Assembly (NCBI GenBank): GCA_965247685.1
Contig: OZ252021.1
Span: 390,001-422,000 of the forward strand
Direction of reading: 5' to 3'
DNA: 32,000 bases
DNA from: Bdellovibrionales bacterium
Lineage (GTDB): Bacteria; Bdellovibrionota; Bdellovibrionia; Bdellovibrionales; UBA1609
Shown here: positions 688-16,890 of the stretch, piece by piece
Numbering within the stretch: the first letter of the stretch is position 1
How the letters are laid out: each line of letters begins with the position of its first letter
Position numbers and translations under genes: made by a program
Notes under the pieces: model-generated
Told to the model about the DNA's origin: nothing
The model's database searches: none
What the model saw: only the letters and a program-made list of their open reading frames with translations

Positions 688-1830
688 ATGAATAAAAACA
701 AACAAACAGGTCGTTTTATTCCGAAATTGAATGGAGACAGCTATGAAGCTTTTATCCCAAACCCTCTTCCTCTTTCTGCTCCTTTTCGAATGGAACAGTT
801 TTATACATTGCTTGAGAAAGCAAACACATCTCTAGGAAGACTAGATGGAATTACAACGGTTCTTCCAAGTTTTAGAAGATTATCTAATATATTTATGAAA
901 AAGGAAGCCACTCTTTCTTCTAAGATAGAAGGTACACAATCAACTTTATCTGACTTTTTAATTTTTGAAACAAAAGAAGATCAAACAAAATCAGAAGATA
1001 ACATAGAAATTCAAAACTATATTTTAGCTATGGAACATGGTTTGCATAAAATAACAAAACTACCTGTGTCTCGTAGACTGATTTGTGAAATTCATAAAAT
1101 ACTTCTTTCAAGTGGTCGAGGAAGTGATAAAACTCCTGGCGAGTTTCGTAAAACACAAAATTGGATAGGGGGATCTCGCCCAGAAAACGCTATTTTTATC
1201 CCACCACCCCCTGAAAACCTTGATGAATGTTTTAGTGATTTTGAGAAATTTTTAAATAATAAAAACGTGCAAATGCCCACTCTTATCAAAGTTGCTTTAG
1301 CACACGTTCAGTTTGAAACTCTACACCCTTTTTCGGATGGAAACGGAAGAGTAGGAAGACTTCTAATTACTTTCATGCTTTGTTTAAGTGGTCTTTTAAA
1401 AGAACCTTTATTATATCTCAGTTTATATTTTCATAAGCATAGAACAGAGTATTACAATCTACTACAATCTGTTAGAGAAAAAGGAGATTGGGAAGCTTGG
1501 GTTCATTTCTTTCTGACAGGGATTATAGAAACTGCTAAACAAATTCAAGATACATCTCATCAAATTATTAATACATTCAAAGAAGATGAAAAAAGAATAA
1601 AGGGTGAGTGTACGGCTGGGGTTATTAAGGCCTATGGTTGTTTTAAAACATATCCTATTGCTTCGGTTAAAAAAGTGCAGGAAGAATCTTCCTCATCCTA
1701 TCAAACTACTTTAAAATCGTTAAAAACTTTGGAAAAACTTGGATTAGTTAAAGAAATAACAGGTCGACATCATAACAAAATTTTTATTTATAAGAGTTAC
1801 ATAAACATCCTTGAAAGAGGACTCAATTAA
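688..1830 (+). CDS. Fic/DOC family protein (probable AMP-transferase), class II with an N-terminal inhibitory motif
   Basis: The Fic active-site motif HPFSDGNGRVGR (consensus HxFx[D/E]GNGRxxR) is at nt 1324-1359, starting at aa 213. The inhibitory motif [S/T]xxxE[G/N] appears as SSKIEG at aa 77-82 (nt 916-933). The C-terminal ~70 aa look winged-helix-like. A GAGGGTG RBS lies upstream. Confidence 0.9.
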   Translation: MNKNKQTGRFIPKLNGDSYEAFIPNPLPLSAPFRMEQFYTLLEKANTSLGRLDGITTVLPSFRRLSNIFMKKEATLSSKIEGTQSTLSDFLIFETKEDQTKSEDNIEIQNYILAMEHGLHKITKLPVSRRLICEIHKILLSSGRGSDKTPGEFRKTQNWIGGSRPENAIFIPPPPENLDECFSDFEKFLNNKNVQMPTLIKVALAHVQFETLHPFSDGNGRVGRLLITFMLCLSGLLKEPLLYLSLYFHKHRTEYYNLLQSVREKGDWEAWVHFFLTGIIETAKQIQDTSHQIINTFKEDEKRIKGECTAGVIKAYGCFKTYPIASVKKVQEESSSSYQTTLKSLKTLEKLGLVKEITGRHHNKIFIYKSYINILERGLN

Positions 1831-1896: not shown

Positions 1897-3078
1897 TTAT
1901 TTTTGGATTTTAAATTGACTGGCTAATCTTTGTGCTTCTGCAATTTGATCCTTCGTCATTTGATTCTTTAGTGTATTCAACAATTGATCTATCGCCTTTT
2001 TAGGTTCGTTTTTCCGAACCCGAGCTTTACTTAAAATCAACCACTTATAAGCTTGAATATAATTCTTCACTACCCCTTCACCAGAGTAATACATCAAACT
2101 AAGATCATTTTGAGCACTTGCAACTCCTTGCTCTGCTGACTTTTTATACCAATAAAACGCTTGCTTATAATTCTTTGTTACTCCTTCACCTTTGTAGTAC
2201 ATCGAACCAAGGACATATTGAGCATCCGCATATCCTTGCTGGGCTGACTTCTCAAACCAATAAACAGCTTTCTTATAATTCTTTACTACTCCTTCACCTT
2301 TGTAATACATCACACCAAGGATAAATTGAGCTATCGCATAACCTTGCTGGGCTGACTTCTCAAGCCAATAAACCGCTTTCTTATAACTCTTTGTTACTCC
2401 TACACCTCTCATATACATCCCACCAAGTCTATTTTGAGCATTTACATGTCCTTGCTGGGCCGATTTTTCAAACCAATAAAACGCTTGCTTATAATTCTTT
2501 ACTACTCCTTCACCTTTTATATACATCTCACCAAGATTATTTTGAGCCTTCGAAACTCCTTGCTGGGCTGACTTTTCATACCAATAGATTGCTTTCTTAT
2601 AATTCTTTGTTACTCCTACACCTCTCATATACATAAAACCAAGGTTATGTTGAGCGAGTGCATCTCCTTGCAGGGCTGACTTCTCATACCAGTAAAACGC
2701 TTTCTTATAATTCTTCACTACTCCTTTACCTTGCTCATACATCAAACTAAGATTAAATTGAGCTTTCGCATCTCCTTGCTGGGCTGACTTTTCAAACCAA
2801 TAAAACGCTTGCTTATAATTCTTTGTTACTCCTTCACCGTTGTAATACATCAAACCAAGTATAGCTTGAGCCTGTACATCTCCTTGCTGGGCTGACTTTT
2901 CATACCAGTAAAAAGCTTTTTTATAATTCTTTTTTTCTCCTTTACCGTAGTAATACATCACACCAAGGTTATATTGAGCTTCCGCATCTCTTTGCTGGGC
3001 TAATTTTTTAATAAGCTCATTTTGAGCAAGTGAAAAACTTTGAAATATTAATAAAAAGATTATGATTAATTTTTTCAT
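1897..3078 (-). CDS. Secreted Sel1-like (SLR/TPR-family) repeat protein, about 9 repeats
   Basis: The signal peptide is MKKLIIIFLLIFQSFSLAQ. It is followed by tandem ~36-aa units of the form A..WYEKSAQQGDA.AQ.NLG.MY..GEGV.KNYKKA, the Sel1 signature. An AAGGAG RBS precedes the ATG. Confidence 0.9.
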   Translation of the reverse strand: MKKLIIIFLLIFQSFSLAQNELIKKLAQQRDAEAQYNLGVMYYYGKGEKKNYKKAFYWYEKSAQQGDVQAQAILGLMYYNGEGVTKNYKQAFYWFEKSAQQGDAKAQFNLSLMYEQGKGVVKNYKKAFYWYEKSALQGDALAQHNLGFMYMRGVGVTKNYKKAIYWYEKSAQQGVSKAQNNLGEMYIKGEGVVKNYKQAFYWFEKSAQQGHVNAQNRLGGMYMRGVGVTKSYKKAVYWLEKSAQQGYAIAQFILGVMYYKGEGVVKNYKKAVYWFEKSAQQGYADAQYVLGSMYYKGEGVTKNYKQAFYWYKKSAEQGVASAQNDLSLMYYSGEGVVKNYIQAYKWLILSKARVRKNEPKKAIDQLLNTLKNQMTKDQIAEAQRLASQFKIQK

Positions 3079-4132: not shown

Positions 4133-4442
4133 TTATTGGCTGACACACATTCTCTCAAAAACTGACAGATGTGTTAAAACTGGAACTGAGAAAAGTCGTC
4201 CAAATACGATAACTAGAGAAAGAATCTACCATGAAAAGAGATGATAATATGAATGAACCTAAAACAGCAGAAGAGTTTAAAGTAAAGCATATTTTTAAAG
4301 ATTTCTTCTCCATACAAAAGACTGAAAATAGAGCTTTCTTTTCATGAAACAACAAGTTTTCAGAAAAAATACTTGCTTTTTTTATCAAAGAATTCTATAA
4401 ATAAAGTAACCACCCTATAGGAGCAATCTTATAGGAGCAACG

Positions 4443-4462
4443 CCCGAGTTAACTCGGGTTTT
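4443..4462 (+). terminator. Intrinsic terminator-like hairpin
   Basis: The palindrome cccgagttaactcggg (4443-4458) is followed by TTTT (4459-4462). Two 11-bp direct repeats tataggagcaa (4416-4426 and 4430-4440) lie just upstream. Confidence 0.45.
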
Positions 4463-4673
4463 GCACTTTCTAGGAGTCTTTTTCATCTTTAAATCTGATA
4501 TCTATGTAGCGTATATTGATGGCTTTAATTTGTTTTACCAAATTAAAACATTTTGTAAAGCAGAAAAAACAAATCTCAAATGGTTAGATATTAAACAATT
4601 CATTCTTAAAAATGTAGAAACAGAAAAACTAGAAAATTTCAAAGATCTAATTAAACAGGAAATACAATTATGA
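4461..4673 (+). pseudogene. Truncated N-terminal fragment of an NYN-domain (PIN-like RNase) gene
   Basis: VAYIDGFNLFYQ...LKWLDIKQF resembles the (V/I)DGFNLYY...KWLDL N-terminus of bacterial NYN-domain proteins. The ORF is only 70 aa and has no ATG. Its TTG start sits inside the T-tract of the preceding terminator. Confidence 0.4.
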
Positions 4674-4689
4674 ATATGGTGAATGTTAG

Positions 4690-7600
4690 ATGATTCAGTT
4701 TACCCCGCATGGTCCAAATATACCTGAAGAAGTTGTAATGGCTCTTAACAATGATAAATTAGTGTTGTTTTGTGGAGCTGGTATTTCAAAGGAACACGGG
4801 TTACCAACGTTTAAAGAATTAGTTAAGAAAGTATGTAAAGAATTATCTATAAATATAGATGGCCATCCTCTTTTAAAGGCATCTAAGGATAAGGAAGATT
4901 ATGATCAAATATTAGATTTAATTGAGGGACAACAAGAATTCTCAGTGAAACCAGAAATCTTAAGACAAAAGATTATCAGTATTTTACAATGTGATACAAA
5001 GTCTGTTGTTCATAAATATGATCAAAATTCTATTGTTCATAAATCTCTTTTGGATCTATCTGCCTTAACAGGTAATAGGGGACATAGGCTGGTAACGACA
5101 AATTTTGATGAGCTGTTTTTTAAGGCAGGATTGACTCGTAATCAAGTAGATTCAGCTCTAAAACTTATACTTTCTAAAAAAGAGGATTGGAATAATTTAA
5201 CATTTTTACATGGGGTTATTGATGAAGAAAATGATCCTGATGGAAAGCACCTTATTCTTACTAAAACAGATTTTGGTAAAGCCTATTTACATGACAAATG
5301 GGCAACTAATTTTATTATTCGTCTTTTTCAAGATTTTAAAGTATTATTTATTGGATATAGTGTAAATGATCCTATAATGCATTATCTTATTTCTGCTATT
5401 AATCATGAAAAGAAAATGAAAGAAGATAGCGGATTAGATTATTCAGCATATGCTTTTGTTGGATATAAAGATGATTCCTCAAAGGAATTAAAAGAAAAAA
5501 AGTGGTTATCAATGGGAATTCAACCAATACCTTATCGGATAGAGATAAGTGCAGACAACAAAGAATACAAGAATCACTCTATGTTATATAACACTATAAA
5601 GGAATGGGCTGATTTAAAGAAGAAAGGTTTTGAAGGATCAAAAAATTGGCTAAAGAAACAATTACGACATCCTTATAGTGACCTGGATAAAGAAAAAGCA
5701 GCTTCTGTAATTTCTTTTTTAAAAACAGATGAAAAATTAACAAAGTATTTTCCACAAATAGATCCTCCTGTTGATATAAGCTGGTTAATACCATTTACTA
5801 ATAATTCTTTAGAAAATCACAAACAAGATCAGGATTATTCAATGCCTCACAATCTAACTGATAAAACAAGATATCCTCAACTTGTGCAACCACTTTGGAG
5901 CTCTTTATCTCCAATAGAAAAATGTATGGTAAAGTGGCGTTGTTATCATTTAGATAAAGAACAATTAATTCAATGGGTTATAAATAATGGCTGTATGTTA
6001 CATCCATATTTTAAACAGCACATTCAATGGGAGATTACAGATAGAGAAAAAAGCACTAATAAAAGATTAAATCCATCTTTAAGTAAAGAAGTGTTATTAT
6101 TTTGGAAAACTGTTTCAAATCAAAATTATCCTCCACATGATCAAAATAATATGTTTGATTTAGTGGAAAGTTTGAACAAAAAATACTGTTCAATTAAAGC
6201 AAATAAATTTATAGGATCATTAAAACCATACATTAGTTTCATGATCTCTGCTAAGTCTCCTCTATATGCTAAGTCTCCTCTATATAATCCAAAACTAAAA
6301 TTGAATATAAATAACCATCTACGAACGTCACTAACTAATGAGAACACCCTTTTAGCACATGCTGAAGATTTTTCTAATCTATTAAAAAAAACAATGGAGT
6401 TAGCAACACTATTTGAAATTATTCAAAATGGAAAGGATACATTTTACAGAGATAGACCTTCTATTGAGAAACATAAACAAAATAATAATCTCTACTCTTG
6501 GACATATTTAATTGATTTAGTACAGGATAGTTTTGATCTAGCTATGAAGAAAGATAAAAAACTAGCTCAGTTTCTATTAGAAAAATGGAAACTTTATCCT
6601 TATTCAATCTTTCATCGATTGATTCTTTATGCTGTCACGAAATATTCTGATTTAGACGAGATAAAAGTTATTGAGTTGTTTCAAAATACTCAAGTTCTAT
6701 GGTCAATAACTTGTAGGAACGAAGTATTTAAATATTTAAAAAAACGAAATCATTCAGAAGAATCTACTAAAAAGTTACTCAAGTTAATTAAACAAGGTCC
6801 TTCTCGATCTCTATTTAACTCAAGTGTTAGTGATGAAAATTTCAATAAATTAAAAGAGATAGAGATTTACTATAGACTAAACAGGTTAAAGAAGTCAGGA
6901 GCTACGTTACCCAAAGCAATAGAAAAATATATCAATAAAATTCAATCAGAGTATCATTTGTCTTCATCGACAGAAGACCGAGATGATTTTCCTGTTTATC
7001 ATACGGGAATTAGAAAAGTCGGTAGTGAAAAGAAGTATCACAATTTAACAGCCCAACAAGTATATAAGGATTTAAAAAGCCTCACAGAAGATGCTCCTCA
7101 ATATAAAAAAGATGATAAACAAGAAAACTTTCGCATGTTAGTTAAAGATCATCCAGAGAAATCTTTTAAAGTACTATTACTTTTTCAAGATGATGATATA
7201 GAAAGTGCCCCTTATTGGGGAACTTTTCTCAGTGCAATTGTTATGATTAGTGATATGGAGATAAAAAAGAAATATTTCTTTGAAGCTTTAGAAAAAGTAG
7301 AAAATTTTAATGATACTGTCTTGAAGAGTATTCTTTGGTCACTCATATTTAGTTTTGATCTATGGGCTGTTGCTATTTATTTAAAAGATAAAAACAATTT
7401 TTATAAATGGTGGAATAAACTATGGAAGTTGAGTCTAGATGAGGATGTTAATCAAACTTCTTGGAATGGGAGTGATATTCCATTTAAAGCCATCAATTCT
7501 AATTTAGGAAAATTATCGAAATCTATAATGAGTATTTTATGGAATCAAGTTATAGAAAACAACAAAATTCCAAAAGATGGAAAGATACCTAACAATATAA

Positions 7601-8487
7601 AAGATTATTTGGAGATTATCATCAAAGATAGTACGCAACGTGATCCATCTGTGTTTTATCATTTTGGTTCGGATTTATCAGCTCTTTGGTTTTTAGATAA
7701 AGAATGGTCAATAAAACACCTAAAACCTTTGATGGACTGGAATAAGAAGAAAGTAATATATAAATCTCTATGGATGGGATTTTTGGATCATATGCGAGTG
7801 AGTCCAGAATTTTTATCGGATTTTAAAGATGATTTTTATCAGCTTCTACGTAATGGAAAAAAGCATATACAAGATCGTAGTTCATGTATTGCCGAAGTCT
7901 TTCTTATTACATCTGGATGTAAATGGTATAAAAGTATATTTGAAGAGAGAGAAGAACAAACTCTTAAACAGAAGACTATTGATGTTGAACTTTTAGAGTC
8001 TATTTCAGAAAAAATATATGAATTATTAGAAGACGCAGAGAGTAACTCTAATAATTTATGGTCTGAAAAGATTAAACCTTGGATAGAAAAATTTTGGCCT
8101 TATCAAACGAATATGCAGAGTCATACAACAGCTTCTAACTTATCCCTTCTAGTTTTGTATTGTGGTGATAAAATACCAGAAGCTTGTAATCTTTTAAAAG
8201 AGAAAATCAAAGGGCATATTGAAGTAAGTCCTTCAGGTATAGTAGATTCAGAATGTAGAAACATAGTTTATCATGTAGATAAATATGGGAAGACAAAATT
8301 AAAATATATCTTTGACTATCCTGAAGAACTTCTATGTCTATTAATTTGGAATTTTCCGGAACAGAAAATAGATCATATAGATCGTAAATCTCTAAGAAAA
8401 ATCTTAGGTGAAATAGAAAGAACTTCTTCTGAATTGGATTTGAAAAACAATGAAAATTATAGTGAACTTAGAGCTAAGTTATCTTGA
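4690..8487 (+). CDS. SIR2_2-domain protein, 1265 aa, with a large unassigned C-terminal region (DSR-like candidate NADase defence protein)
   Basis: N-terminal ~270 aa: LVLFCGAGISKEHGLPTF (Rossmann GAGxS, aa 29-33), LVTTNFDELF (Asn138), LTFLHGVID (His174) and VLFIGYSVNDP. These are the conserved blocks of the SIR2_2 family (ThsA, DSR1/DSR2). The remaining ~950 aa show no motif I recognise. Confidence 0.75.
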   Translation: MIQFTPHGPNIPEEVVMALNNDKLVLFCGAGISKEHGLPTFKELVKKVCKELSINIDGHPLLKASKDKEDYDQILDLIEGQQEFSVKPEILRQKIISILQCDTKSVVHKYDQNSIVHKSLLDLSALTGNRGHRLVTTNFDELFFKAGLTRNQVDSALKLILSKKEDWNNLTFLHGVIDEENDPDGKHLILTKTDFGKAYLHDKWATNFIIRLFQDFKVLFIGYSVNDPIMHYLISAINHEKKMKEDSGLDYSAYAFVGYKDDSSKELKEKKWLSMGIQPIPYRIEISADNKEYKNHSMLYNTIKEWADLKKKGFEGSKNWLKKQLRHPYSDLDKEKAASVISFLKTDEKLTKYFPQIDPPVDISWLIPFTNNSLENHKQDQDYSMPHNLTDKTRYPQLVQPLWSSLSPIEKCMVKWRCYHLDKEQLIQWVINNGCMLHPYFKQHIQWEITDREKSTNKRLNPSLSKEVLLFWKTVSNQNYPPHDQNNMFDLVESLNKKYCSIKANKFIGSLKPYISFMISAKSPLYAKSPLYNPKLKLNINNHLRTSLTNENTLLAHAEDFSNLLKKTMELATLFEIIQNGKDTFYRDRPSIEKHKQNNNLYSWTYLIDLVQDSFDLAMKKDKKLAQFLLEKWKLYPYSIFHRLILYAVTKYSDLDEIKVIELFQNTQVLWSITCRNEVFKYLKKRNHSEESTKKLLKLIKQGPSRSLFNSSVSDENFNKLKEIEIYYRLNRLKKSGATLPKAIEKYINKIQSEYHLSSSTEDRDDFPVYHTGIRKVGSEKKYHNLTAQQVYKDLKSLTEDAPQYKKDDKQENFRMLVKDHPEKSFKVLLLFQDDDIESAPYWGTFLSAIVMISDMEIKKKYFFEALEKVENFNDTVLKSILWSLIFSFDLWAVAIYLKDKNNFYKWWNKLWKLSLDEDVNQTSWNGSDIPFKAINSNLGKLSKSIMSILWNQVIENNKIPKDGKIPNNIKDYLEIIIKDSTQRDPSVFYHFGSDLSALWFLDKEWSIKHLKPLMDWNKKKVIYKSLWMGFLDHMRVSPEFLSDFKDDFYQLLRNGKKHIQDRSSCIAEVFLITSGCKWYKSIFEEREEQTLKQKTIDVELLESISEKIYELLEDAESNSNNLWSEKIKPWIEKFWPYQTNMQSHTTASNLSLLVLYCGDKIPEACNLLKEKIKGHIEVSPSGIVDSECRNIVYHVDKYGKTKLKYIFDYPEELLCLLIWNFPEQKIDHIDRKSLRKILGEIERTSSELDLKNNENYSELRAKLS

Positions 8488-8647
8488 TTAGTGTCATATC
8501 CACAACTGAGATTAAAATAATTGCATAGTTTTAAATATTGAATGTTCGCTCAACACACTAGTAACTCCAACAACAAGTGTAGATAGCAACACTCCAGTAA
8601 CTGATAAATAATTTTGTTTAGATGTTGCCACAGTATAAGATCAAAAA

Positions 8648-8674
8648 GGAGAACGAAAGTTCTCCCTTTTTTTT
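8648..8674. terminator. Bidirectional intrinsic terminator between the convergent SIR2 and COG2865 genes
   Basis: The stem ggagaac (8648-8654) / gttctcc (8659-8665) has a GAAA loop. It is preceded by AAAAA and followed by a T8 run, so it has the form of a terminator on both strands. Confidence 0.7.
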
Positions 8675-8718
8675 AACTACTCTAAATGAGATTTACCATA
8701 AGGAACATTGATTAGTAT

Positions 8719-8959
8719 AAAGTGGCAGTATAAAGCTACTAAAGTGGCAGTATAAAGCTACCAAAGTGGCAGTATAAAGCTACCAAAGTGGCAGTATAAA
8801 ACTACTAAAATACAGTATAAAGCTATCAAAGTGGCAGTATAAAGCTATCAAAGTGGCAGTATAAAGCTACTAAAGTGGCAGTATAAAGCTACCAAAGTGG
8901 CAGTATAAAGCTACCAAAGTGGCAGTATAAAGCTACCAAAGTGGCAGTATAAAACTACT
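8719..8959. repeat. Tandem array of 11 x 22-bp direct repeats (iteron-like), no spacers
   Basis: The unit is aaagtggcagtataaagctacY. Units start at 8719, 8741, 8763, 8785, 8807 (21 bp, degenerate: aaaatacag...), 8828, 8850, 8872, 8894, 8916 and 8938. Variation is limited to the last 3-6 positions (ctact/ctacc/ctatc/aaactact). The last unit overlaps the stop codon of the 8958-10418 gene. Confidence 0.95.
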
Positions 8960-10418
8960 ACTTTATAGATTCTTTTAATACCTTATATCTCTCAGTAATT
9001 TTGTATTTCCCAGTTTTCTTTGAGCCTTCAAATGATACGAGTTTATTTTCTTTTAAAGTAATTATGTTTCTATCTAAAGTTCTTAAGGGCATATTGTACT
9101 TTTTAGAGAAAAACAGTCTGGAAAAATTATTATTTTCTATATGATGTAATATCTGTAACAGTTCATTTATTTTTATTTCTTTTTTCACAGCAAGGATTTC
9201 ACTTAGCTTCTTCGTGAGATTCTCCATAGCTACTACCTCAGGTGCTTTAATAATATGTCCTCCTGGAAGGGGTTTTCTATAAAATATTAGTGTTGTAAAT
9301 TTAGTAAATTCAAAATTGATAGGTTTCAGTCCTGCTTTTGCGACTAAATTTTTCATTTTCTTTATTCCTGTTCCCATTTTTTCAATATATCCTGCTCTTA
9401 ACATAAGCTGAGCAATAAGTGGATTTCTAGCAGAACTTCTCTTCCCAAGTTCTGATATCTTTAAATCCTTTGGAAGTGCTCCAAAATTATATATTTCTAC
9501 TCTATCATCGAAAATTTCAACTGTCACAGATATACCTTTCTCTAAATACTTTCTATGAGTTACGGCGTTGATTAAAGCTTCTCGTAATGCATCTTCTGGT
9601 ATTTCTAAAATCTCTTCTCTATACAACTGTCCTTTAGGAAGGACATATTCTAAGCGCAAGTGTTTTTTTAAAAAATCTACTGAATCTTCAACGTTATTGA
9701 TTATATCCTTGTTGAATATTTTTCTATCAATCACATGAATTTTTTCTGTTCCCTTAAAAAGAGCACAAGATACTGCTGCTTGTGGAAAAATACTTTCTAA
9801 ATTTTTAGAGAAAAATAAAACTCCTGTATTATTAAAAACAATTTTTGAGCCTTCTCTTTTTGCAATACTGAGATTTTCTAATAGTTGAATATAGTTGCTT
9901 CTACTGTATTGTACTTCACTTCTATCCATAAAATAAAATAACTTTTCTTTATCAAAATCTTTTTTGAAATTAAATTTTTTACAAATAACTTCATCAAATT
10001 TTAGACGATCTTCAGTTTCTAAAAATTCTATAATCTCATCTCGACTAAGTTTTTTTGAAGACGCTCCATCCCGCACATAGAAACCTGAAGAACATTTATG
10101 AGGTTTATTATCACTTTCTTGAACTTTAACTATTAAAACTTTTTCTTTTTTTATTTCCTGGAGTGAAATGGACAAGTTGGGATCACAATTATTAGCAATG
10201 TCCTTTATTTGACTTTTTAATCTGTTTGTAATATTATTTGCATCTTTTACTTCACCATCATCTGTAATACCAATGTAAATTTGCCCGCCAGAAGCATTGG
10301 CGAAAGCAACCATTTCTTTACCAAGATTGCTATATACTTGTTCCTTGAATTCAGTTTTATAGTCCTCCCCTTTTTTAAGGATAGATTCAAGGTCTCGCGA
10401 AGAAGTAAACTTTGCCAT
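8958..10418 (-). CDS. AlbA_2 (Schlafen-like, 'divergent AAA') + HATPase_c_4 + C-terminal wHTH protein (COG2865 family putative regulator)
   Basis: The N-terminus, ...GEDYKTEFKEQV...EMVAFANASGGQIYIGITDDGEV, matches the AlbA_2 signature. The central REALINAVTHRKY...VEIFDDRVEIYNFG matches the HATPase_c_4 block. The C-terminal ~80 aa are HTH-like. Confidence 0.75.
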   Translation of the reverse strand: MAKFTSSRDLESILKKGEDYKTEFKEQVYSNLGKEMVAFANASGGQIYIGITDDGEVKDANNITNRLKSQIKDIANNCDPNLSISLQEIKKEKVLIVKVQESDNKPHKCSSGFYVRDGASSKKLSRDEIIEFLETEDRLKFDEVICKKFNFKKDFDKEKLFYFMDRSEVQYSRSNYIQLLENLSIAKREGSKIVFNNTGVLFFSKNLESIFPQAAVSCALFKGTEKIHVIDRKIFNKDIINNVEDSVDFLKKHLRLEYVLPKGQLYREEILEIPEDALREALINAVTHRKYLEKGISVTVEIFDDRVEIYNFGALPKDLKISELGKRSSARNPLIAQLMLRAGYIEKMGTGIKKMKNLVAKAGLKPINFEFTKFTTLIFYRKPLPGGHIIKAPEVVAMENLTKKLSEILAVKKEIKINELLQILHHIENNNFSRLFFSKKYNMPLRTLDRNIITLKENKLVSFEGSKKTGKYKITERYKVLKESIK

Positions 10419-10426
10419 TTATATAC

Positions 10427-10666
10427 TTAGTGTTCTTTGTCTTTTATAGAAATAGGATCATTGCCATGTGAATCTTTAGAACGAAATCTCCCAGGTATAC
10501 CATGGGTTATCAATTCTGTATGTGCTTTTTTAGCAATACTCTTACCAGCTTGTTCTGCTAATTTTTGAGTATTATGCGTCGATACCACTTCACCACATTG
10601 TGTAACTTTCCATTTTCTTCCACTACCCTTATTAAGGGATACATGAATTGGTTTCTTTCTTAGCAT
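10427..10666 (-). CDS. DUF2188 family small protein
   Basis: ...GRKWKVTQCGEVVSTHNTQKLAEQAGKSIAKKAHTELITHGIPGRFRSKDSHGNDP matches the DUF2188 pattern (W.V...G......T..EA...A...A.....EL.IHG.DG.I....S.GNDP). The gene ends 8 nt upstream of the COG2865 gene, so they are probably co-transcribed. Confidence 0.7.
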   Translation of the reverse strand: MLRKKPIHVSLNKGSGRKWKVTQCGEVVSTHNTQKLAEQAGKSIAKKAHTELITHGIPGRFRSKDSHGNDPISIKDKEH

Positions 10667-10948: not shown

Positions 10949-12403
10949 ATGAAACGATCTATCTCTAACAACGAAAAGATTGTAAAAATTTTAAAACAAA
11001 AAGGCCCATTACTTTCAGATGAAATTATACAAAAACTCTGTTCCAAACACAATCTAACAAAAGGAGCTGCCATAAAAGCTTTATCTAGAGCATCTGATCC
11101 TATTAAAAAAATAGATAAGATTAGATTACGAAGTCAAAAATTCTTTTACCTAAATAAATTAGATTATGAAGTAAAAAATACACTATATAAATACTGCAAT
11201 AAATATAATACTGCTGAGGGACTTATTTTAAATGCATTAATGACTCGAGATGGAATATGTTTAGCAAAGTATCTTCCTATTATCTCAGGGCTTCCTGTTG
11301 ACAAAATTAGTAAACAAAAACCCTTTAAAGATGTACTTTCAGGCTTAGAAGAAATTGATATGATACAGAAGCACAAAGATGAAGATTTTTCAGAAGACTT
11401 TTATTATTTATTTAACAAAAAAAACAGTAATTATTCAAAATCAAAATTTTTTCTTTTATTAGAAGATAAAATTTTGGAACAATTAAAAATTTTATTTATA
11501 AAATTGAATTTCACTTCTACAAACAAGGTTAAAATTCGATGTGAAAATGATATTCCTAATTATGGAAGTTTTAACTGGAGTTTAGTTGGCCCATGTTATC
11601 TGGATGGAATTATGGTAGGAAAGAACCCTGGATTTCTTTGTTGTGATATTTTTTTAGGAGGAAGATTGAACACAGACAATATAAAACCTATTTTAAGAAA
11701 ATATAAAACTTCTAAGTTTCAGAAAAGAAATACGAGAATGATACCAGCTATTTTTTTTCAAAGTATGACGAAACCTCTGCTGAATGAATTGAGAGGAAAA
11801 GGGTTTCTGACTATTTCGACAAAAACATTTGGAGGAGATGAATTATTAAAGTGTTTAGAAGAATTAGTTAGATTATATACTAAAATACATAGGAGAGATA
11901 TAGGTCAAGAAACTAGTAAAATTATAAAAAAATATTTTGATCTCAAATTTGGTAAAGATAACAATATTAAAGGTTATTTATTTAATTTTATTGCAAAGAG
12001 CATATTTGATCTTCAATACACAAACGTTGAAATGAGCAAGAAAATCCAATATAACAATCAACCAAAAGAAATAGATGTTTACTTTGAGGATGAATATTTT
12101 CGATATATCGTAGAGTGTAAAGCATGGGCTAACTTCAAAAATAAAGAGACTGAAATTGAAGATTGGCTAGAGAACAAATATACATTTTTTAAAAAATGGA
12201 ATAATGATAACAACCCACAAAAAGAATTAAAAATTTATTTCATCGTATCCCTGAAAAATTCAGAAGAAATAAGTAAAATAAGTAAAAAGTTCAAGGATTA
12301 CCATTTAGTAACATTTTATGATCAAACATTTTTATATGACATTGCAAATGATTACAATCAAACAGAAACAAAGTCTGCTTTAAGATATTTCTTAGACACA
12401 TAG
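10949..12403 (+). CDS. Hypothetical protein with an N-terminal HTH-like region and a C-terminal PD-(D/E)xK (Mrr/restriction-endonuclease-like) motif
   Basis: KGYLFNFIAKSIFDLQYTNV...KEIDVYFEDEYFRYIVECKAW (D376, E389, K391; nt 12074-12121) has the helix - D - hydrophobic strand - ExK layout of Mrr_cat-type nucleases. The N-terminal ~60 aa (IVKILKQKGPLLSDEIIQKL...) look wHTH-like. Confidence 0.45.
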   Translation: MKRSISNNEKIVKILKQKGPLLSDEIIQKLCSKHNLTKGAAIKALSRASDPIKKIDKIRLRSQKFFYLNKLDYEVKNTLYKYCNKYNTAEGLILNALMTRDGICLAKYLPIISGLPVDKISKQKPFKDVLSGLEEIDMIQKHKDEDFSEDFYYLFNKKNSNYSKSKFFLLLEDKILEQLKILFIKLNFTSTNKVKIRCENDIPNYGSFNWSLVGPCYLDGIMVGKNPGFLCCDIFLGGRLNTDNIKPILRKYKTSKFQKRNTRMIPAIFFQSMTKPLLNELRGKGFLTISTKTFGGDELLKCLEELVRLYTKIHRRDIGQETSKIIKKYFDLKFGKDNNIKGYLFNFIAKSIFDLQYTNVEMSKKIQYNNQPKEIDVYFEDEYFRYIVECKAWANFKNKETEIEDWLENKYTFFKKWNNDNNPQKELKIYFIVSLKNSEEISKISKKFKDYHLVTFYDQTFLYDIANDYNQTETKSALRYFLDT

Positions 12404-12856: not shown

Positions 12857-14794
12857 TTATTTTTGGATTTTAAATTGACTGGCTAATCTTTGTGCTTCTG
12901 TAATTTGATCCTTTGTCATTCGATTCTCTAGTGTATTCAACAGTTGATTTATCGCCTTTTTAGGTTCGTTTTTCCGAACCCGAGCTTTACTTAAAATCAA
13001 CCACTTATAAGCTTGAATATCATTCTTCACTACTCCTTTGCCGTAGTGATACATCAAAACAAGGTTAAGTTGAGCAGGCGCATTTTCTTGCTGGGCTGAC
13101 TTCTCATACCAGTAAAACGCTTTCTTATAATTCTTTTTTATTCCTTCACCGTTGTAATACATCGAACCAAGATTATTTTGAGCTCTCGCATCTCCTTGCT
13201 GGGCTGACTTCTCATACCAATAAAAAGATTTTTTATAATTCTTTTCTACTCCTTCACCTTGCTCATACATTAAACCAAGTTCATATTGAGCTTCCGCATG
13301 CCCTTGCTGAGCTGACTTTTCAAACCAATAAAACGCTTGCTTATAATTCTTTGTTACTCCTTCACCTTTGTAATACATTAAACCAAGGTCAAATTGAGCA
13401 CCCACATATCCTTGCTGGGCTGACTTTTCATACCAGTAAAACGCTTTCTTATAATTCTTTGTTACTCCGTCACCTTGCTCATACATGAAACCAAGGTTAT
13501 TTTGAGCACCCGCATATCCTTGTTGGGCTGACTTTTCAAACCAATAAAACGCTTTTTTATAGTCCTTTTTTACTCCTTCACCTTTGTAATACATCAAACC
13601 AAGTTCAAATTGAGCTTCCGTATATCCTTGCTGGGATGACTTTTCATACCAATAAAACGCTTGCTTATAATTCTTTGTTACTCCTTCACCTCCCGCATAC
13701 ATCACACCAAGGTTATATTGAGCGAGCGTATATCCTTGCTGTGCTGACTTTTCATACCAATAAAGAGCCTGTTTATAATTCTTTGTTACTCCTTCACCAG
13801 AGTAATACATCGAACCAAGGTTATTTTGAGCACCCACATATCCTTGCTGGGCTGACTTTTCAAACCAATAGATTGCTTGCTTATAATTCTTTGTTACTCC
13901 TTCACCAGAGTAATACATCCTACCAAGGTTATCTTGAGCGAGCGCTTCTCCTTGCTGGGCTGACTTTTCAAACCAATAGATTGCTTGCTTATAATTCTTT
14001 GTTACTCCTTCACCTTTCTTATACATCATACCAAGGTTATTTTGAGCTATCTCTTGTCCTTGCTGGGCTGCCTTTTTATACAAATTAAATGCTTTTTTAT
14101 AGTCCTTTTTTACTCCTTCACCTCTATAATACATCACACCAAGGTTATATTGAGCTTCCGCTTGTCCTTGCTGGGCTGACTTTTCAAACCAATAAAGAAC
14201 CTTTTTATAATTCTTTGTTACTCCTTCACCAGAGTAATACATCGAACCAAGGTTATATTGAGCTCTCGCATATCCTTGCTGGGCTGACTTTTCATACCAA
14301 TAAAACGCTTGCTTATAATTCTTTTTTATTCCTTCACCTCCCGCATACATCAAACCAAGGTTATATTGAGCTTCCGCATCTCCTTGCTGGGCTGACTTTT
14401 CATTCCAATAAAACGCTTTCTTATAATTCCTTACTACTCCTTCACCTTTCTTATACATCAAACTAAGATTATTTTGAGCACTCGCATCTCCTTGCTGGGC
14501 TGACTTTTCAAGCCAATAGATTGCTTTCTTATAATTCTTTGTTACTCCTTCACCAGAGTAATACATCACACCAAGGCTAAATTGAGCGCCCGCAGTTCCT
14601 TGCTGGGCTGACTTCTCAAGCCAATAAAACGCTTTCTTATAATTCTTCGTTACTCCTTCACCGTTGTAATACATCAAACCAAGTTTAAATTGAGCTGCCG
14701 CATTTCCTTGCTGGGCTAACTTTTCAGTGGGCTTATATTGAGCAAGTGAAAAACTTTGAAATATTAATAAAAAGATTATGATTAATTTTTTCAT
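12857..14794 (-). CDS. Secreted Sel1-like repeat protein, about 16 repeats
   Basis: The signal peptide MKKLIIIFLLIFQSFSLAQ is the same as in the other two paralogs, and the C-terminal tail (...IQAYKWLILSKARVRKNEPKKAINQLLNTLENRMTKDQITEAQRLASQFKIQK) is near-identical to that of paralog 1 and related to that of paralog 3. I place the start at the ATG at 14794 (paralog-consistent), not at the TTG at 14854 given by the ORF track. Confidence 0.9.
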   Translation of the reverse strand: MKKLIIIFLLIFQSFSLAQYKPTEKLAQQGNAAAQFKLGLMYYNGEGVTKNYKKAFYWLEKSAQQGTAGAQFSLGVMYYSGEGVTKNYKKAIYWLEKSAQQGDASAQNNLSLMYKKGEGVVRNYKKAFYWNEKSAQQGDAEAQYNLGLMYAGGEGIKKNYKQAFYWYEKSAQQGYARAQYNLGSMYYSGEGVTKNYKKVLYWFEKSAQQGQAEAQYNLGVMYYRGEGVKKDYKKAFNLYKKAAQQGQEIAQNNLGMMYKKGEGVTKNYKQAIYWFEKSAQQGEALAQDNLGRMYYSGEGVTKNYKQAIYWFEKSAQQGYVGAQNNLGSMYYSGEGVTKNYKQALYWYEKSAQQGYTLAQYNLGVMYAGGEGVTKNYKQAFYWYEKSSQQGYTEAQFELGLMYYKGEGVKKDYKKAFYWFEKSAQQGYAGAQNNLGFMYEQGDGVTKNYKKAFYWYEKSAQQGYVGAQFDLGLMYYKGEGVTKNYKQAFYWFEKSAQQGHAEAQYELGLMYEQGEGVEKNYKKSFYWYEKSAQQGDARAQNNLGSMYYNGEGIKKNYKKAFYWYEKSAQQENAPAQLNLVLMYHYGKGVVKNDIQAYKWLILSKARVRKNEPKKAINQLLNTLENRMTKDQITEAQRLASQFKIQK

Positions 14795-15050
14795 ACTAAG
14801 TTTTATCTTAAAATAAATGTTACTTATAATATGTTTTATATTTAAAAATACCAATCTTTTCTCTTTTTATAAAACTCTGAGTCAATTTTTCTATCTTAGT
14901 AAATATAACAACTATTTTTCCCTTACTATTTCTTATATTAAAACCAGATCAAAGCCTACTAGATTTACCTTCAATAGTCAATATACCCTAAGGAAAGAAG
15001 AAAAAAATTAAATATACTTGTACAAGAATCTACGACGGAAAATAATAATT
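14795..15050. repeat. Sel1 cassette 5'-flank repeat (partner 16626-16890)
   Basis: About 256 bp immediately upstream of the Sel1 #2 start aligns with the region upstream of Sel1 #3. Both end in ctacgacggaaa(a/g)taat(a/c)att. There are scattered substitutions and small indels. Confidence 0.85.
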
Positions 15051-15749: not shown

Positions 15750-16625
15750 CTATAAAACAATATCTTTCTTTGTGGATTTTATAAATTGCCTGATCAATCT
15801 TTGTGCTTCCGCAATTTGATTCTTTGTCATTTGATTCTCTAGTGTATTCAACAATTGATTTATCGCTTCTTTAGATTCGTGTTTCCGAATTTTACCTAAA
15901 ATCAACCATTTATAAGCTTGAATATAATTCTTTTTCACTCCTCTTCCCATGAAATACATCACACCAATAGTAAATTGAGCATATATATGTCCTAGCTGTG
16001 CTGACTTCTTAAGCCAATAAAAAGCCTGTTTGTAATTCTTTACTACTCCTACACCGTTGTAATACATTTCACCAAGAGTAAATTGAGCCTTCGAAACTCC
16101 TTGCTGGGCTGACTTCTTATACCAATAAAACGCTTGCTTATAATTCTTTACTAAGCCTTCACCTCTATAATGCATCAAACCAAGTTTAAATTGAGCATCT
16201 GCATATCCTTGCTGGGCTGACTTTTTATACCAATCAAAAGCCTGTTTGTAACTCTTTACCACTCCTCCTTTTCCATATTGATACATCCAACCAAGATTAT
16301 ATTGAGCTTCCGTATTTCCCTGCTGTGCTGATTTTTCAAACCAATAGATTGCTTTCTCATAATTCCTTACTACTCCTTTTCCATCGTAATACCTGTCACC
16401 AAGTATATTTTGAGCTCTCGCATATCCTTGCTGGGCTGACTTTTCATACCAATCAAAAGCTTTCTTATAATCCCTTACTACTCCTCCTTCACCTTTCTCA
16501 TGCATCATACCAAGGTTAAGTTGAGCCTTTGCATCTCCTTGCTGGGCTAATTTTTTAATAAGCTCATTTTGAGCAAGTGAAAAACTTTGAAATATTAATA
16601 AAAAGATTATGATTAATTTTTTCAT
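15750..16625 (-). CDS. Secreted Sel1-like repeat protein, about 6 repeats
   Basis: It has the same signal peptide, MKKLIIIFLLIFQSFSLAQNELIKKLAQQGDA. The Sel1 units are more diverged (some with a GG insertion), and the tail is related (IQAYKWLILGK...QMTKNQIAEAQRL). The start is taken at the paralog-consistent ATG at 16625. Confidence 0.9.
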   Translation of the reverse strand: MKKLIIIFLLIFQSFSLAQNELIKKLAQQGDAKAQLNLGMMHEKGEGGVVRDYKKAFDWYEKSAQQGYARAQNILGDRYYDGKGVVRNYEKAIYWFEKSAQQGNTEAQYNLGWMYQYGKGGVVKSYKQAFDWYKKSAQQGYADAQFKLGLMHYRGEGLVKNYKQAFYWYKKSAQQGVSKAQFTLGEMYYNGVGVVKNYKQAFYWLKKSAQLGHIYAQFTIGVMYFMGRGVKKNYIQAYKWLILGKIRKHESKEAINQLLNTLENQMTKNQIAEAQRLIRQFIKSTKKDIVL

Positions 16626-16890
16626 ACTAAGTTTTATCTTAAAATAAATGTTACTCATAATTACTTACAATATGTTTTATATTTAAAAATACCGACCTTT
16701 TCTCTTTTTATAAAACTCTGATTCAATTCTTTCTGTCCTAACAAATATAACAACTGTTTTTTTTTACTATTTATTATAGTAATACCTAGGTCAAGTTTAC
16801 TAGATTTACCTTAAATAGTCAATATATTCTAAGGAAAGAAGAAAAAATTAAATGTACTTGTACGAGAACCTACGACGGAAAGTAATCATT
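16626..16890. repeat. Sel1 cassette 5'-flank repeat (partner 14795-15050)
   Basis: See 14795-15050. This copy continues directly into the 3'-flank repeat with no DUF805 insert. Confidence 0.85.

What the first reader, a model, noticed from the sequence alone, without database searches (positions are those of the whole stretch)
4690..8487. 1265-aa SIR2_2-domain protein with a ~950-aa unassigned C-terminal region: candidate single-gene NAD+-depleting anti-phage system (DSR-like)
Seen: the N-terminal ~270 aa carry all the conserved SIR2_2 blocks, namely GAGIS (aa 29-33), TTNFD (Asn138), LHG (His174) and FIGYSVNDP. The residues that are catalytic in defence sirtuins therefore look intact. The gene is bracketed by a terminator-like hairpin upstream (4443-4462) and a bidirectional terminator downstream (8648-8674), which suggests a monocistronic unit.

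Established: SIR2_2 domains in ThsA (Thoeris), DSR1/DSR2, SIR2-HerA and SIR2-associated short pAgo systems act as NADases that abort phage infection. DSR1/DSR2 have the same architecture, an N-terminal SIR2 joined to a long helical sensor region.

Inference: the C-terminal 950 aa show no motif I can name and may be a new sensor module. The neighbourhood (HNH, Fic, an NYN remnant, Schlafen-like and PD-(D/E)xK genes) looks like a defence island.
Basis: partly seen in the sequence, partly recalled or inferred. Interest (0 to 1): 0.8.

Follow-up and report, generated by a model that had tools for sequence, protein, structure and literature searches.

The report
Divergent Dsr1 anti-phage sirtuin gene
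The 1265-residue protein is a complete but divergent copy of Dsr1, an already described single-gene bacterial anti-phage system that destroys NAD+, so its long C-terminal region is the known Dsr1 sensor and not a new module.

Summary
The ORF (4690-8487, +, 1265 aa), its SIR2_2 domain, the four motifs and both flanking hairpins are all real. N138 and H174 align residue for residue with the catalytic Asn/His of ThsA (N112/H152) and DSR2 (N133/H171).

The C-terminal ~950 aa are not unassigned. The whole protein aligns end to end with Dsr1 models: PADLOC E 7.8e-143 and NCBIfam NF041818 E 1.2e-150, both covering about 99% of protein and profile. It also aligns with PGAP-annotated Dsr1 proteins at aa 2-1260 (24% identity, E 8e-83).

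It is a divergent member. It scores 503 bits against the NCBIfam cutoff of 1400. Its nearest relatives are 38-48% identical, and those that could be traced to a named genome (three loci) are Bdellovibrionales MAGs.

The gene is accessory. It shares no synteny or conserved neighbour with 80 homologous loci. It lies in a low-GC variable region that ends at a tmRNA gene, and close relatives carry other cargo there, in one case a type I R-M gene.

The likely mechanism is inferred from E. coli Dsr1 and a Bacillus-tested Dsr1. An alpha-solenoid sensor binds a phage protein, which for E. coli Dsr1 is the major capsid protein. This activates the SIR2 NADase and depletes NAD+.

Verdict: new member of a known kind, low interest.

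The parts
4690..8487 (+). Dsr1-family gene, 1265 aa, intact
   Evidence: ORF list and translation. PADLOC Dsr1 PDLC04167 E 7.8e-143, aa 3-1261 against profile 2-1236/1248. NCBIfam NF041818 Dsr1 E 1.2e-150, aa 3-1262 against 2-1260/1263, 503.5 bits against cutoff 1400. BLASTP to PGAP-annotated Dsr1 of Nitrosococcus halophilus covers aa 2-1260, E 8e-83.
4690..5589 (+). N-terminal SIR2 (SIR2_2) NADase effector domain, aa 1 to about 300
   Evidence: Pfam SIR2_2 E 3.4e-17. AF2 model of aa 1-337 has pLDDT 91.5 and pTM 0.90. Best Foldseek PDB matches are DSR2, KomC, ThsA and FAM118B, E about 1e-10, TM 0.5-0.6.
4774..4788 (+). GAGIS motif (aa 29-33), the glycine-rich NAD-binding loop
   Evidence: Translation. 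G29, G31 and S33 are invariant in A1. The motif aligns with GAGvS of KomC and DSR2.
5101..5103 (+). Codon of Asn138 (TTNFD), predicted catalytic Asn
   Evidence: Invariant in 45-, 55- and 105-sequence alignments. Aligns with ThsA N112 and DSR2 N133.
5209..5211 (+). Codon of His174 (LHG), predicted catalytic His
   Evidence: Invariant. Aligns with ThsA H152 and DSR2 H171. The H171A chains score lower.
5650..8484 (+). Dsr1-type alpha-solenoid sensor region, aa about 321-1265
   Evidence: AF2 model of aa 280-1265 has pLDDT 89.5 and pTM 0.75. It is almost all helical with one beta-hairpin. Foldseek against PDB gives only generic HEAT/ARM solenoids, TM 0.2-0.3. A sensor-only profile finds 5210 cluster representatives at E<=1e-3. 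Of the top 150, most are about 1150-1340 aa with the sensor starting near residue 270-360; about 30 are shorter. Four of the long ones tested all carry SIR2_2, and five of the short ones inspected begin inside the SIR2 tail and so are truncated calls.
6249..6285 (+). Perfect 18-bp in-frame tandem duplication (AKSPLY AKSPLY, aa 520-531) in the loop of the sensor's only beta-hairpin
   Evidence: TRF reports 2.1 copies at 100% match. Translation. Hairpin strands are model residues 235-240 and 253-258.
4437..4464 (+). Upstream terminator-like hairpin followed by UUUUG, which insulates the gene from upstream transcription
   Evidence: Fold -17.5 kcal/mol, z -6.1, 0 of 200 shuffles as good. Sequence.
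8643..8675 (.). Bidirectional intrinsic-terminator-like hairpin (A-run, GC stem, T-run) 160 nt after the stop codon
   Evidence: Terminator scan. Folds on both strands, z -3.8 and -4.0. Sequence.
17165..17514 (-). tmRNA gene marking the border between the variable low-GC region (1 to about 17.1 kb, holding the Dsr1 gene) and the conserved core
   Evidence: Rfam RF00023 136 bits. ARAGORN. Relatives L083 and L084 are syntenic only to the right of their tmRNA. GC is about 0.30 to the left and about 0.355 to the right.

Best explanation
The gene encodes a divergent member of the Dsr1 (defence-associated sirtuin 1) family, a stand-alone anti-phage protein. The proposed working is as follows. The C-terminal ~950-aa alpha-solenoid sensor keeps the N-terminal SIR2 domain inactive. 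During infection the sensor binds a phage protein; for E. coli Dsr1 this is the HK97-fold major capsid protein. The SIR2 domain (N138, H174) then hydrolyses NAD+, and the drop in NAD+ blocks phage replication. The gene is a horizontally acquired accessory gene. It is transcribed on its own between two terminator hairpins and sits in a variable region next to the 3' end of the tmRNA gene of a small-genome Bdellovibrionales-like bacterium.

Shown here: family membership by full-length homology, intact and correctly aligned catalytic residues, a defence-type SIR2 fold, an alpha-solenoid sensor, no conserved partner gene, and accessory location.

Inferred from other Dsr1 proteins: NADase activity, phage protection, and the capsid trigger.
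For: - Full-length single-stretch matches to Dsr1 HMMs: PADLOC E 7.8e-143 and NCBIfam Dsr1 E 1.2e-150. No hit to any Dsr2 model.
- tblastn against plasmids: the covered features are annotated 'anti-phage defense-associated sirtuin Dsr1', with 92-100% query coverage in hits H1-H7. Pairwise alignment covers aa 2-1260 against 1-1259, E 8e-83.
- Catalytic N138/H174 are invariant and align to ThsA N112/H152 and DSR2 N133/H171.
- The SIR2 model (pLDDT 91.5) is closest to the defence NADases DSR2, KomC and ThsA.
- The sensor model (pLDDT 89.5) is an alpha-solenoid.
- The sensor profile retrieves thousands of proteins. All sampled full-length ones have the SIR2+sensor architecture.
- No gene family is shared within 4 kb of the homologue in more than 9 of 80 loci, which fits a one-gene system.
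- Accessory status: no flank synteny with 80 loci, including the three closest. Synteny with close relatives (PDH E1 80% identical) ends at the tmRNA, and one relative has a type I R-M HsdR there. Gene GC is 0.294 against about 0.355 in the core.
- SIR2 is more conserved than the sensor: about 55-60% against 41-48% in the close clade, and 30-40% against 15-22% to distant Dsr1. This pattern is typical of immune sensors.
- Literature: Dsr1 protects B. subtilis from phi29 with transient NAD+ depletion (10.1101/2021.12.14.472415). The E. coli Dsr1 sensor is homologous to the Avs7 sensor, is triggered by the phage ZL19 major capsid protein, and toxicity needs the NADase domain (10.64898/2026.01.04.697583).
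Against: - The score is well below NCBIfam's equivalog cutoff (503.5 against 1400 bits), and identity to experimentally studied-type Dsr1 is only about 24% overall and about 20% in the sensor. Trigger specificity therefore cannot be transferred with confidence.
- No activity, protection or expression data exist for this protein or its subclade.
- No convincing promoter was found; promoter-like sites are no more frequent than in shuffles.
Confidence: 0.85

Rival explanations
1. It is a Dsr1-type NADase defence protein, but the diverged sensor of this Bdellovibrionales subclade recognises a trigger other than the HK97-fold major capsid protein: another phage protein, or a host perturbation.
For: The sensor is only 15-22% identical to distant Dsr1 sensors and about 22% to E. 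coli Dsr1 over aa 580-1173. The close subclade (38-48% identity) is separated from the rest by a clear gap. A recent in-frame duplication lies in a sensor loop. The literature notes alternative activators for other sensors.
Against: The sensor is collinear with Dsr1 sensors over its entire length. In the cited work the capsid protein was the trigger for both proteins tested, SeAvs7 and EcDsr1, which sit in distinct sensor clades.
Confidence: 0.35
2. It is one component of a multi-gene system with a neighbour: the upstream 70-aa ORF, or the convergent Schlafen/AlbA_2-HATPase_c_4 plus DUF2188 pair.
For: Defence-type neighbours are present. The 70-aa ORF ends 17 nt before the start codon.
Against: No neighbour family is conserved among 80 homologous loci, and none of the window's neighbours recur next to homologues. 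The 70-aa ORF is a truncated fragment matching only positions 5-38 of a 203-position profile. The Schlafen gene is convergent and lies beyond a bidirectional terminator.
Confidence: 0.04
3. It is a decaying or inactive relic of a defence gene in a reduced genome.
For: The contig is small (1.28 Mb). Truncated fragments such as 4461-4673 lie in the same region. The exact protein sequence is absent from the protein collection although its neighbours are present.
Against: The frame is uninterrupted for 1265 codons and matches the profile length (1263) end to end. All family-invariant residues are retained, including 12 sensor residues, 6 of them tryptophans. The AF2 models are confident.
Confidence: 0.05
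4. It is a housekeeping sirtuin (protein deacylase or regulator) and not an immune protein.
For: The SIR2 superfamily fold. Weak hits to CobB-type models at the GAGIS loop only.
Against: Canonical SIR2 PF02146 reaches only E 0.28 over 15 residues. The best structural matches are defence NADases. The gene is accessory with a patchy distribution across phyla, plasmids and prophage contigs.
Confidence: 0.02

Closest known systems
Dsr1 (defence-associated sirtuin 1; Gao et al. 2020; Garb et al. 2021/2022; E. coli Dsr1 in 10.64898/2026.01.04.697583)
   Same: Same length (1265 aa against a 1263-position profile). Same two-part architecture of N-terminal SIR2_2 plus a ~950-aa helical sensor. Collinear alignment over 99% of the length, the same catalytic motifs, single-gene organisation, and location in variable or mobile DNA.
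   Different: Only about 24% identical to annotated Dsr1 proteins and below NCBIfam's equivalog cutoff (503.5 against 1400 bits). It belongs to a separate subclade of about 50 sequences, 38-48% identical, whose three members with named genomes are all Bdellovibrionales MAGs. No member of this subclade has been tested.
DSR2 (Bacillus subtilis; structures 8K98, 8WY8, 8Z18 and others)
   Same: N-terminal SIR2 NADase with the same catalytic Asn/His (N133/H171 against N138/H174). The SIR2 fold is the best PDB match, E 7e-11, TM 0.57. The C-terminal sensor is helical-repeat. It is a single-gene system.
   Different: No PADLOC Dsr2 hit. The sensor model does not retrieve DSR2 among the top 50 PDB matches. 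The DSR2 trigger is the tail tube protein, not the capsid (literature).
Avs7 (STAND NTPase whose TPR sensor is reported to be shared with Dsr1)
   Same: According to the 2026 preprint, the Dsr1 sensor is homologous to the Avs7 sensor and both are triggered by the phage major capsid protein. The sensor here is homologous to Dsr1 sensors.
   Different: There is no STAND NTPase domain here, and the effector is SIR2. Homology of this particular sensor to Avs7 was not tested, because no Avs7 sequence or structure was available in the tools.
ThsA (Thoeris effector)
   Same: SIR2_2 NADase domain. PADLOC ThsA hits are E 7e-13 and 1e-9. Catalytic residues align with N112/H152.
   Different: There is no SLOG/STALD signal-binding domain and no ThsB partner gene. 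Activation is presumably by a protein trigger, not by gcADPR.

Membership tests
Dsr1 | Full-length homology to Dsr1 family profiles | tested here: met
   PADLOC PDLC04167 E 7.8e-143, aa 3-1261 against 2-1236/1248. NCBIfam NF041818 E 1.2e-150, aa 3-1262 against 2-1260/1263. Annotated Dsr1 proteins align at aa 2-1260.
Dsr1 | Score above NCBIfam's curated equivalog cutoff (1400 bits) | tested here: not met
   503.5 bits. This places the protein as a divergent subfamily member and not a close equivalog. PGAP would probably call it only 'SIR2 family protein'.
Dsr1 | N-terminal SIR2_2 domain with catalytic Asn and His | tested here: met
   Pfam SIR2_2 E 3.4e-17. N138/H174 are invariant and aligned with ThsA N112/H152 and DSR2 N133/H171.
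Dsr1 | Long C-terminal helical-repeat sensor homologous to that of other Dsr1 proteins | tested here: met
   The sensor is collinear with E. coli and Nitrosococcus Dsr1. The AF2 model is an alpha-solenoid, pLDDT 89.5. A sensor-only profile finds 1860 representatives at E<=1e-30.
Dsr1 | Bilobed, sharply bent sensor geometry as described for E. coli Dsr1 and Avs7 | not testable with these tools
Dsr1 | Works as a single gene, with no obligatory partner | tested here: met
   No conserved neighbour in 80 loci. The gene is flanked by terminator hairpins.
Dsr1 | NAD+ depletion on infection and phage protection; capsid-protein trigger | not testable with these tools
   Known only for other Dsr1 proteins.
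DSR2 | Homology to Dsr2 profiles and to the DSR2 MID/CTD sensor | tested here: not met
   No PADLOC Dsr2 hit. PDB sequence hits to DSR2 cover the SIR2 domain only. The sensor model does not retrieve DSR2.
Thoeris ThsA | SIR2 fused to a SLOG/STALD domain, with an adjacent TIR ThsB gene | tested here: not met
   ThsA profile matches are limited to SIR2 (aa 13-242). No TIR or SLOG gene was found among the neighbours.
Canonical sirtuin deacylases (Pfam SIR2, CobB) | Significant match to PF02146 or CobB models | tested here: not met
   PF02146 E 0.28 over 15 residues. CobB models score 12-14 bits against cutoffs of 243-320.

The most novel reading that the evidence does not exclude
The roughly 50-member subclade, whose traceable members are Bdellovibrionales MAGs and to which this protein belongs, has a sensor that has drifted to only about 20% identity from characterised Dsr1. 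It may therefore recognise a different phage component, or capsids of a phage group not yet described for small-genome Bdellovibrionota. The fresh 6-residue duplication in the sensor's beta-hairpin loop could be a sign of ongoing specificity change.
Probability: 0.3. Interest if true: 0.35.

Novelty: new member of a known kind. Interest (0 to 1): 0.15.

Why it matters
The result mainly corrects the record. The 'unassigned' region is the known Dsr1 sensor, so this is not a new sensor module. Three smaller points remain:
- Current curated cutoffs (NCBIfam 1400 bits) would miss this divergent Dsr1 subclade, so Dsr1 is probably under-annotated in Bdellovibrionota-like MAGs.
- A bacterium with a very small genome (contig 1.28 Mb) still keeps phage-defence genes, a Dsr1 homologue and a SoFic-like gene, beside its tmRNA gene. 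Relatives carry other cargo at the same site, in one case a type I R-M gene. This suggests a defence hotspot and implies real phage pressure on this poorly known lineage.
- The subclade offers a distant sequence for testing how far capsid recognition by Dsr1/Avs7-type sensors extends.

Tried and rejected
- Exact look-up of the protein: not in the collection although six neighbours are. Look-up of the neighbouring Schlafen gene's contig returned nothing. The source record could not be named, so host identity was inferred from PDH E1 homologues.
- Search for a direct repeat of the tmRNA 3' end (an att site) in 1-17.1 kb found nothing longer than 11 nt. No integrase was seen. A classical integrated island is therefore not demonstrated, only a variable region.
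- Tested whether the sensor occurs with other effectors. Only the top 150 of 5210 hits are listed. The shorter ones lacking SIR2_2 start inside the SIR2 tail ('MRYLVDA...') and are truncated gene calls, not alternative fusions. The reported Avs7 link could not be tested.
- Single-sequence PDB search missed DSR2. Profiles were needed.
- The 22-bp repeat unit was scanned in viral and metagenome collections with no match.
- An HNH neighbour was not supported by Pfam, PADLOC or NCBIfam.
Full report
**Observation.** The window holds an uninterrupted ORF at 4690-8487 on the + strand, with an ATG start and 1265 codons. An in-frame TAG sits directly before the ATG. Homologues start at the same residue (MIQFTPHGPNIP against MQFITNGPDIP), so the start is sound.

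Pfam finds SIR2_2 at aa 134-280 (E 3.4e-17). In a 45-sequence family alignment G29, G31, S33, T136, T137, N138, D140, H174, G222 and D227 are invariant. The same core stays invariant with 55 and 105 sequences.

A profile of aa 112-262 was searched against PDB sequences. It aligns N138 and H174 with ThsA N112/H152 and with DSR2 N133/H171. The deposited DSR2 H171A chains score 4.7 bits less than wild type.

The upstream hairpin (4437-4464, then UUUUG) folds at -17.5 kcal/mol with z -6.1. The downstream element (8643-8675: A-run, GC stem, T-run) folds on both strands. The factual part of the finding is confirmed.

**What it is.** The claim that the C-terminal ~950 aa carry nothing nameable does not hold.
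- The whole protein matches Dsr1 models in one continuous stretch. PADLOC PDLC04167 gives E 7.8e-143 over aa 3-1261 against profile 2-1236 of 1248. NCBIfam NF041818 'anti-phage defense-associated sirtuin Dsr1' gives E 1.2e-150 over aa 3-1262 against 2-1260 of 1263.
- A tblastn against PLSDB plasmids lands on genes that PGAP annotates as Dsr1, with 92-100% query coverage in hits H1-H7.
- The pairwise alignment with the Nitrosococcus halophilus Dsr1 runs from residue 2 to 1260 (24% identity, E 8e-83). The alignment with an E. coli plasmid Dsr1 covers aa 2-454 and 580-1173.
- No Dsr2 model is hit.

The protein is nevertheless divergent. It scores 503.5 bits against NCBIfam's equivalog cutoff of 1400. 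In the 5.8-billion-protein collection its nearest relatives form a group of about 50 sequences at 38-48% identity. After that, identity drops to 31% or less. The three closest loci in species-representative genomes are all Bdellovibrionales MAGs (L001-L003, 42-44% identity). A further 530 relatives are spread over many bacterial phyla and one archaeon. About 30 full-length homologues lie on IMG/VR viral or prophage contigs.

**Structure.**
- An AlphaFold2 model of aa 1-337 (pLDDT 91.5, pTM 0.90) is most similar to the defence NADases DSR2, KomC, ThsA and human FAM118B (Foldseek E about 1e-10, TM 0.5-0.6).
- A model of aa 280-1265 (pLDDT 89.5, pTM 0.75) is an almost purely helical solenoid with a single beta-hairpin. 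Against the PDB it retrieves only generic HEAT/ARM solenoids such as importins, CRM1 and SF3B1 at TM 0.2-0.3, and not DSR2.
- No Dsr1 or Avs7 structure was detected in the PDB copy, by sequence or by fold.
- A profile built from the sensor region alone finds 5210 cluster representatives at E<=1e-3 and 1860 at E<=1e-30 among 1.84 billion. Most of the 150 listed are about 1150-1340 aa, with the sensor starting near residue 270-360. Sampled full-length ones carry SIR2_2. The shorter ones begin inside the SIR2 tail and are truncated gene calls.

**Genomic context.** The gene is an accessory gene.
- None of the window's neighbours recurs beside the homologue in any of 80 loci, including the three closest. 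No gene family is shared within 4 kb of the homologue in more than 9 of 80 loci. This fits a one-gene system.
- The host is a Bdellovibrionales-like bacterium with a small genome. The neighbouring proteins sit on a 1.28-Mb contig. Its PDH E1 is 80% identical to proteins of unnamed ENA MAG contigs, 64% to 'MAG: Bdellovibrionales bacterium' and 53% to Pseudobdellovibrio exovorus.
- Two of those close relatives (L083, L084) are collinear with the window from 17.7 kb to 32 kb, and collinearity stops at a tmRNA gene (window 17165-17514, minus strand).
- Beyond the tmRNA 3' end the relatives carry different cargo. One has pentapeptide-repeat, HSP20 and GGT genes. The other has a type I restriction HsdR gene.
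- In the window this side holds three Sel1-repeat genes, DUF805, an unknown 484-aa gene, a DUF2188 plus AlbA_2/HATPase_c_4 pair, the Dsr1 gene, a truncated fragment, a DCC1-like gene and a SoFic-like Fic gene (PADLOC E 5.5e-116).
- GC is about 0.30 on this side against about 0.355 in the conserved part, and 0.294 in the Dsr1 gene.
- No att repeat or integrase was found, so I call it a variable region and not a proven integrated island.

**Mechanism.**
- Shown here: Dsr1 membership by full-length homology, an intact catalytic dyad in a defence-type SIR2 fold, a Dsr1-type helical sensor, autonomy of the gene, and accessory status.
- Inferred from the family: Dsr1 protects B. subtilis against phi29 with a transient drop in NAD+ and without culture collapse (10.1101/2021.12.14.472415). 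For E. coli Dsr1, the sensor is homologous to the TPR sensor of the STAND protein Avs7. The major capsid protein of phage ZL19 is the sole trigger in a 73-gene screen, and toxicity needs the NADase domain. In SeAvs7 the bilobed sensor envelops the HK97-fold capsid protein (10.64898/2026.01.04.697583).
- Most likely working: sensor-mediated recognition of a phage structural protein releases SIR2 NADase activity, and NAD+ depletion blocks phage replication.

I put 0.85 on 'Dsr1-family NADase defence protein' and roughly 0.5 on the capsid protein being the trigger for this subclade. The sensor is only about 20% identical to that of characterised Dsr1, whereas SIR2 is better conserved (30-40% to distant members, 55-60% within the subclade).

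**Rivals.**
- A different trigger (0.35) is a variant of the main explanation, not a competing explanation.
- A multi-gene system with neighbours is unlikely (0.04), because no neighbour is conserved and terminators separate the genes.
- An inactive relic is unlikely (0.05). The frame is intact, the length equals the profile length and all family-invariant residues are kept.
- A housekeeping deacylase is very unlikely (0.02). Canonical SIR2 and CobB models barely register, and the distribution is patchy and mobile.

**Novelty and verdict.** That alignment exists for DSR1. The finding is a correct recognition of a defence sirtuin with an incorrect claim of a new sensor. It is a new, divergent member of a known kind, with low interest (0.15). 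What remains of modest interest is the unstudied subclade seen so far in Bdellovibrionales MAGs, its position in a tmRNA-adjacent variable region of a very small genome, and a perfect 18-bp in-frame duplication (AKSPLY x2, 6249-6285) in the sensor's beta-hairpin loop.

Noticed in passing
window 8719-8958: Eleven head-to-tail copies of a 22-bp unit (AAAGTGGCAGTATAAAGCTACC, 92% match). They fill the space between the bidirectional terminator and the stop codon of the minus-strand AlbA_2 gene, so they would lie in that gene's 3' UTR. The spacing of 22 bp (two helical turns) resembles iterons or a protein-binding array. There is no exact unit elsewhere in the window, in IMG/VR or in the metagenome collection. 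Unexplained.
   Followed up: partly
window 6249-6285: Perfect 18-bp in-frame tandem duplication inside the Dsr1 gene, giving AKSPLYAKSPLY (aa 520-531). It lies in the loop of the only beta-hairpin of the sensor model. Its perfection suggests a recent event.
   Followed up: partly
window 17165-17514 (-); L083 3995-4342; L084 3579-3929: tmRNA gene (tag GNQQVALVA) exactly at the break of synteny with two close relatives. The DNA beyond its 3' end differs in each genome; one relative has a type I R-M HsdR there. This suggests a tmRNA-adjacent hotspot for accessory and defence genes. No att repeat or integrase was found in the window.
   Followed up: yes
window 688-1830 (+): Fic-domain protein matching the PADLOC SoFic model over its full length (E 5.5e-116) but below NCBIfam's SoFic cutoff (170.8 against 550 bits). 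It may be a second single-gene defence system in the same region.
   Followed up: partly
window 1897-3078 (-), 12857-14854 (-), 15750-16658 (-): Three Sel1-repeat protein genes whose 36-aa repeats are still visible as 108-bp tandem repeats at the DNA level (72-83% match, up to 15.7 copies). Such proteins are typical of host-associated bacteria and may say something about the lifestyle of this small-genome lineage.
   Followed up: no
window 8958-10418 (-) and 10427-10666 (-): A DUF2188 gene (PADLOC candidate PDC-S16, E 7.5e-17) lies 8 bp upstream of a 486-aa Schlafen AlbA_2 + HATPase_c_4 gene. The pair is probably an operon and might be a defence or regulatory module.
   Followed up: no
window 10949-12403 (+): A 484-aa protein with no hit in Pfam, PADLOC, NCBIfam or PDB sequences. 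GC is 0.265, the lowest of the long (>100 aa) ORFs in the window.
   Followed up: partly
window 4461-4673 (+): A 70-aa ORF directly upstream of the Dsr1 gene. It matches only the first ~35 positions of the 203-position PADLOC HEC-09 model (E 1.4e-5), so it is a truncated remnant of another gene, and its start overlaps the upstream hairpin.
   Followed up: partly
window 4690-8487: The exact Dsr1 protein sequence is absent from the 15-billion-protein collection, although six neighbouring proteins of the same 1.28-Mb contig are present. The reason is unknown; the gene may not have been called, or may have been called differently, in the source record.
   Followed up: no
L001, L002, L003 (10001-13900): In the three closest Bdellovibrionales loci the Dsr1 homologue also has lower GC than its flanks (0.32 against 0.40, 0.31 against 0.34, 0.41 against 0.47). 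This is consistent with horizontal spread of the subclade.
   Followed up: partly
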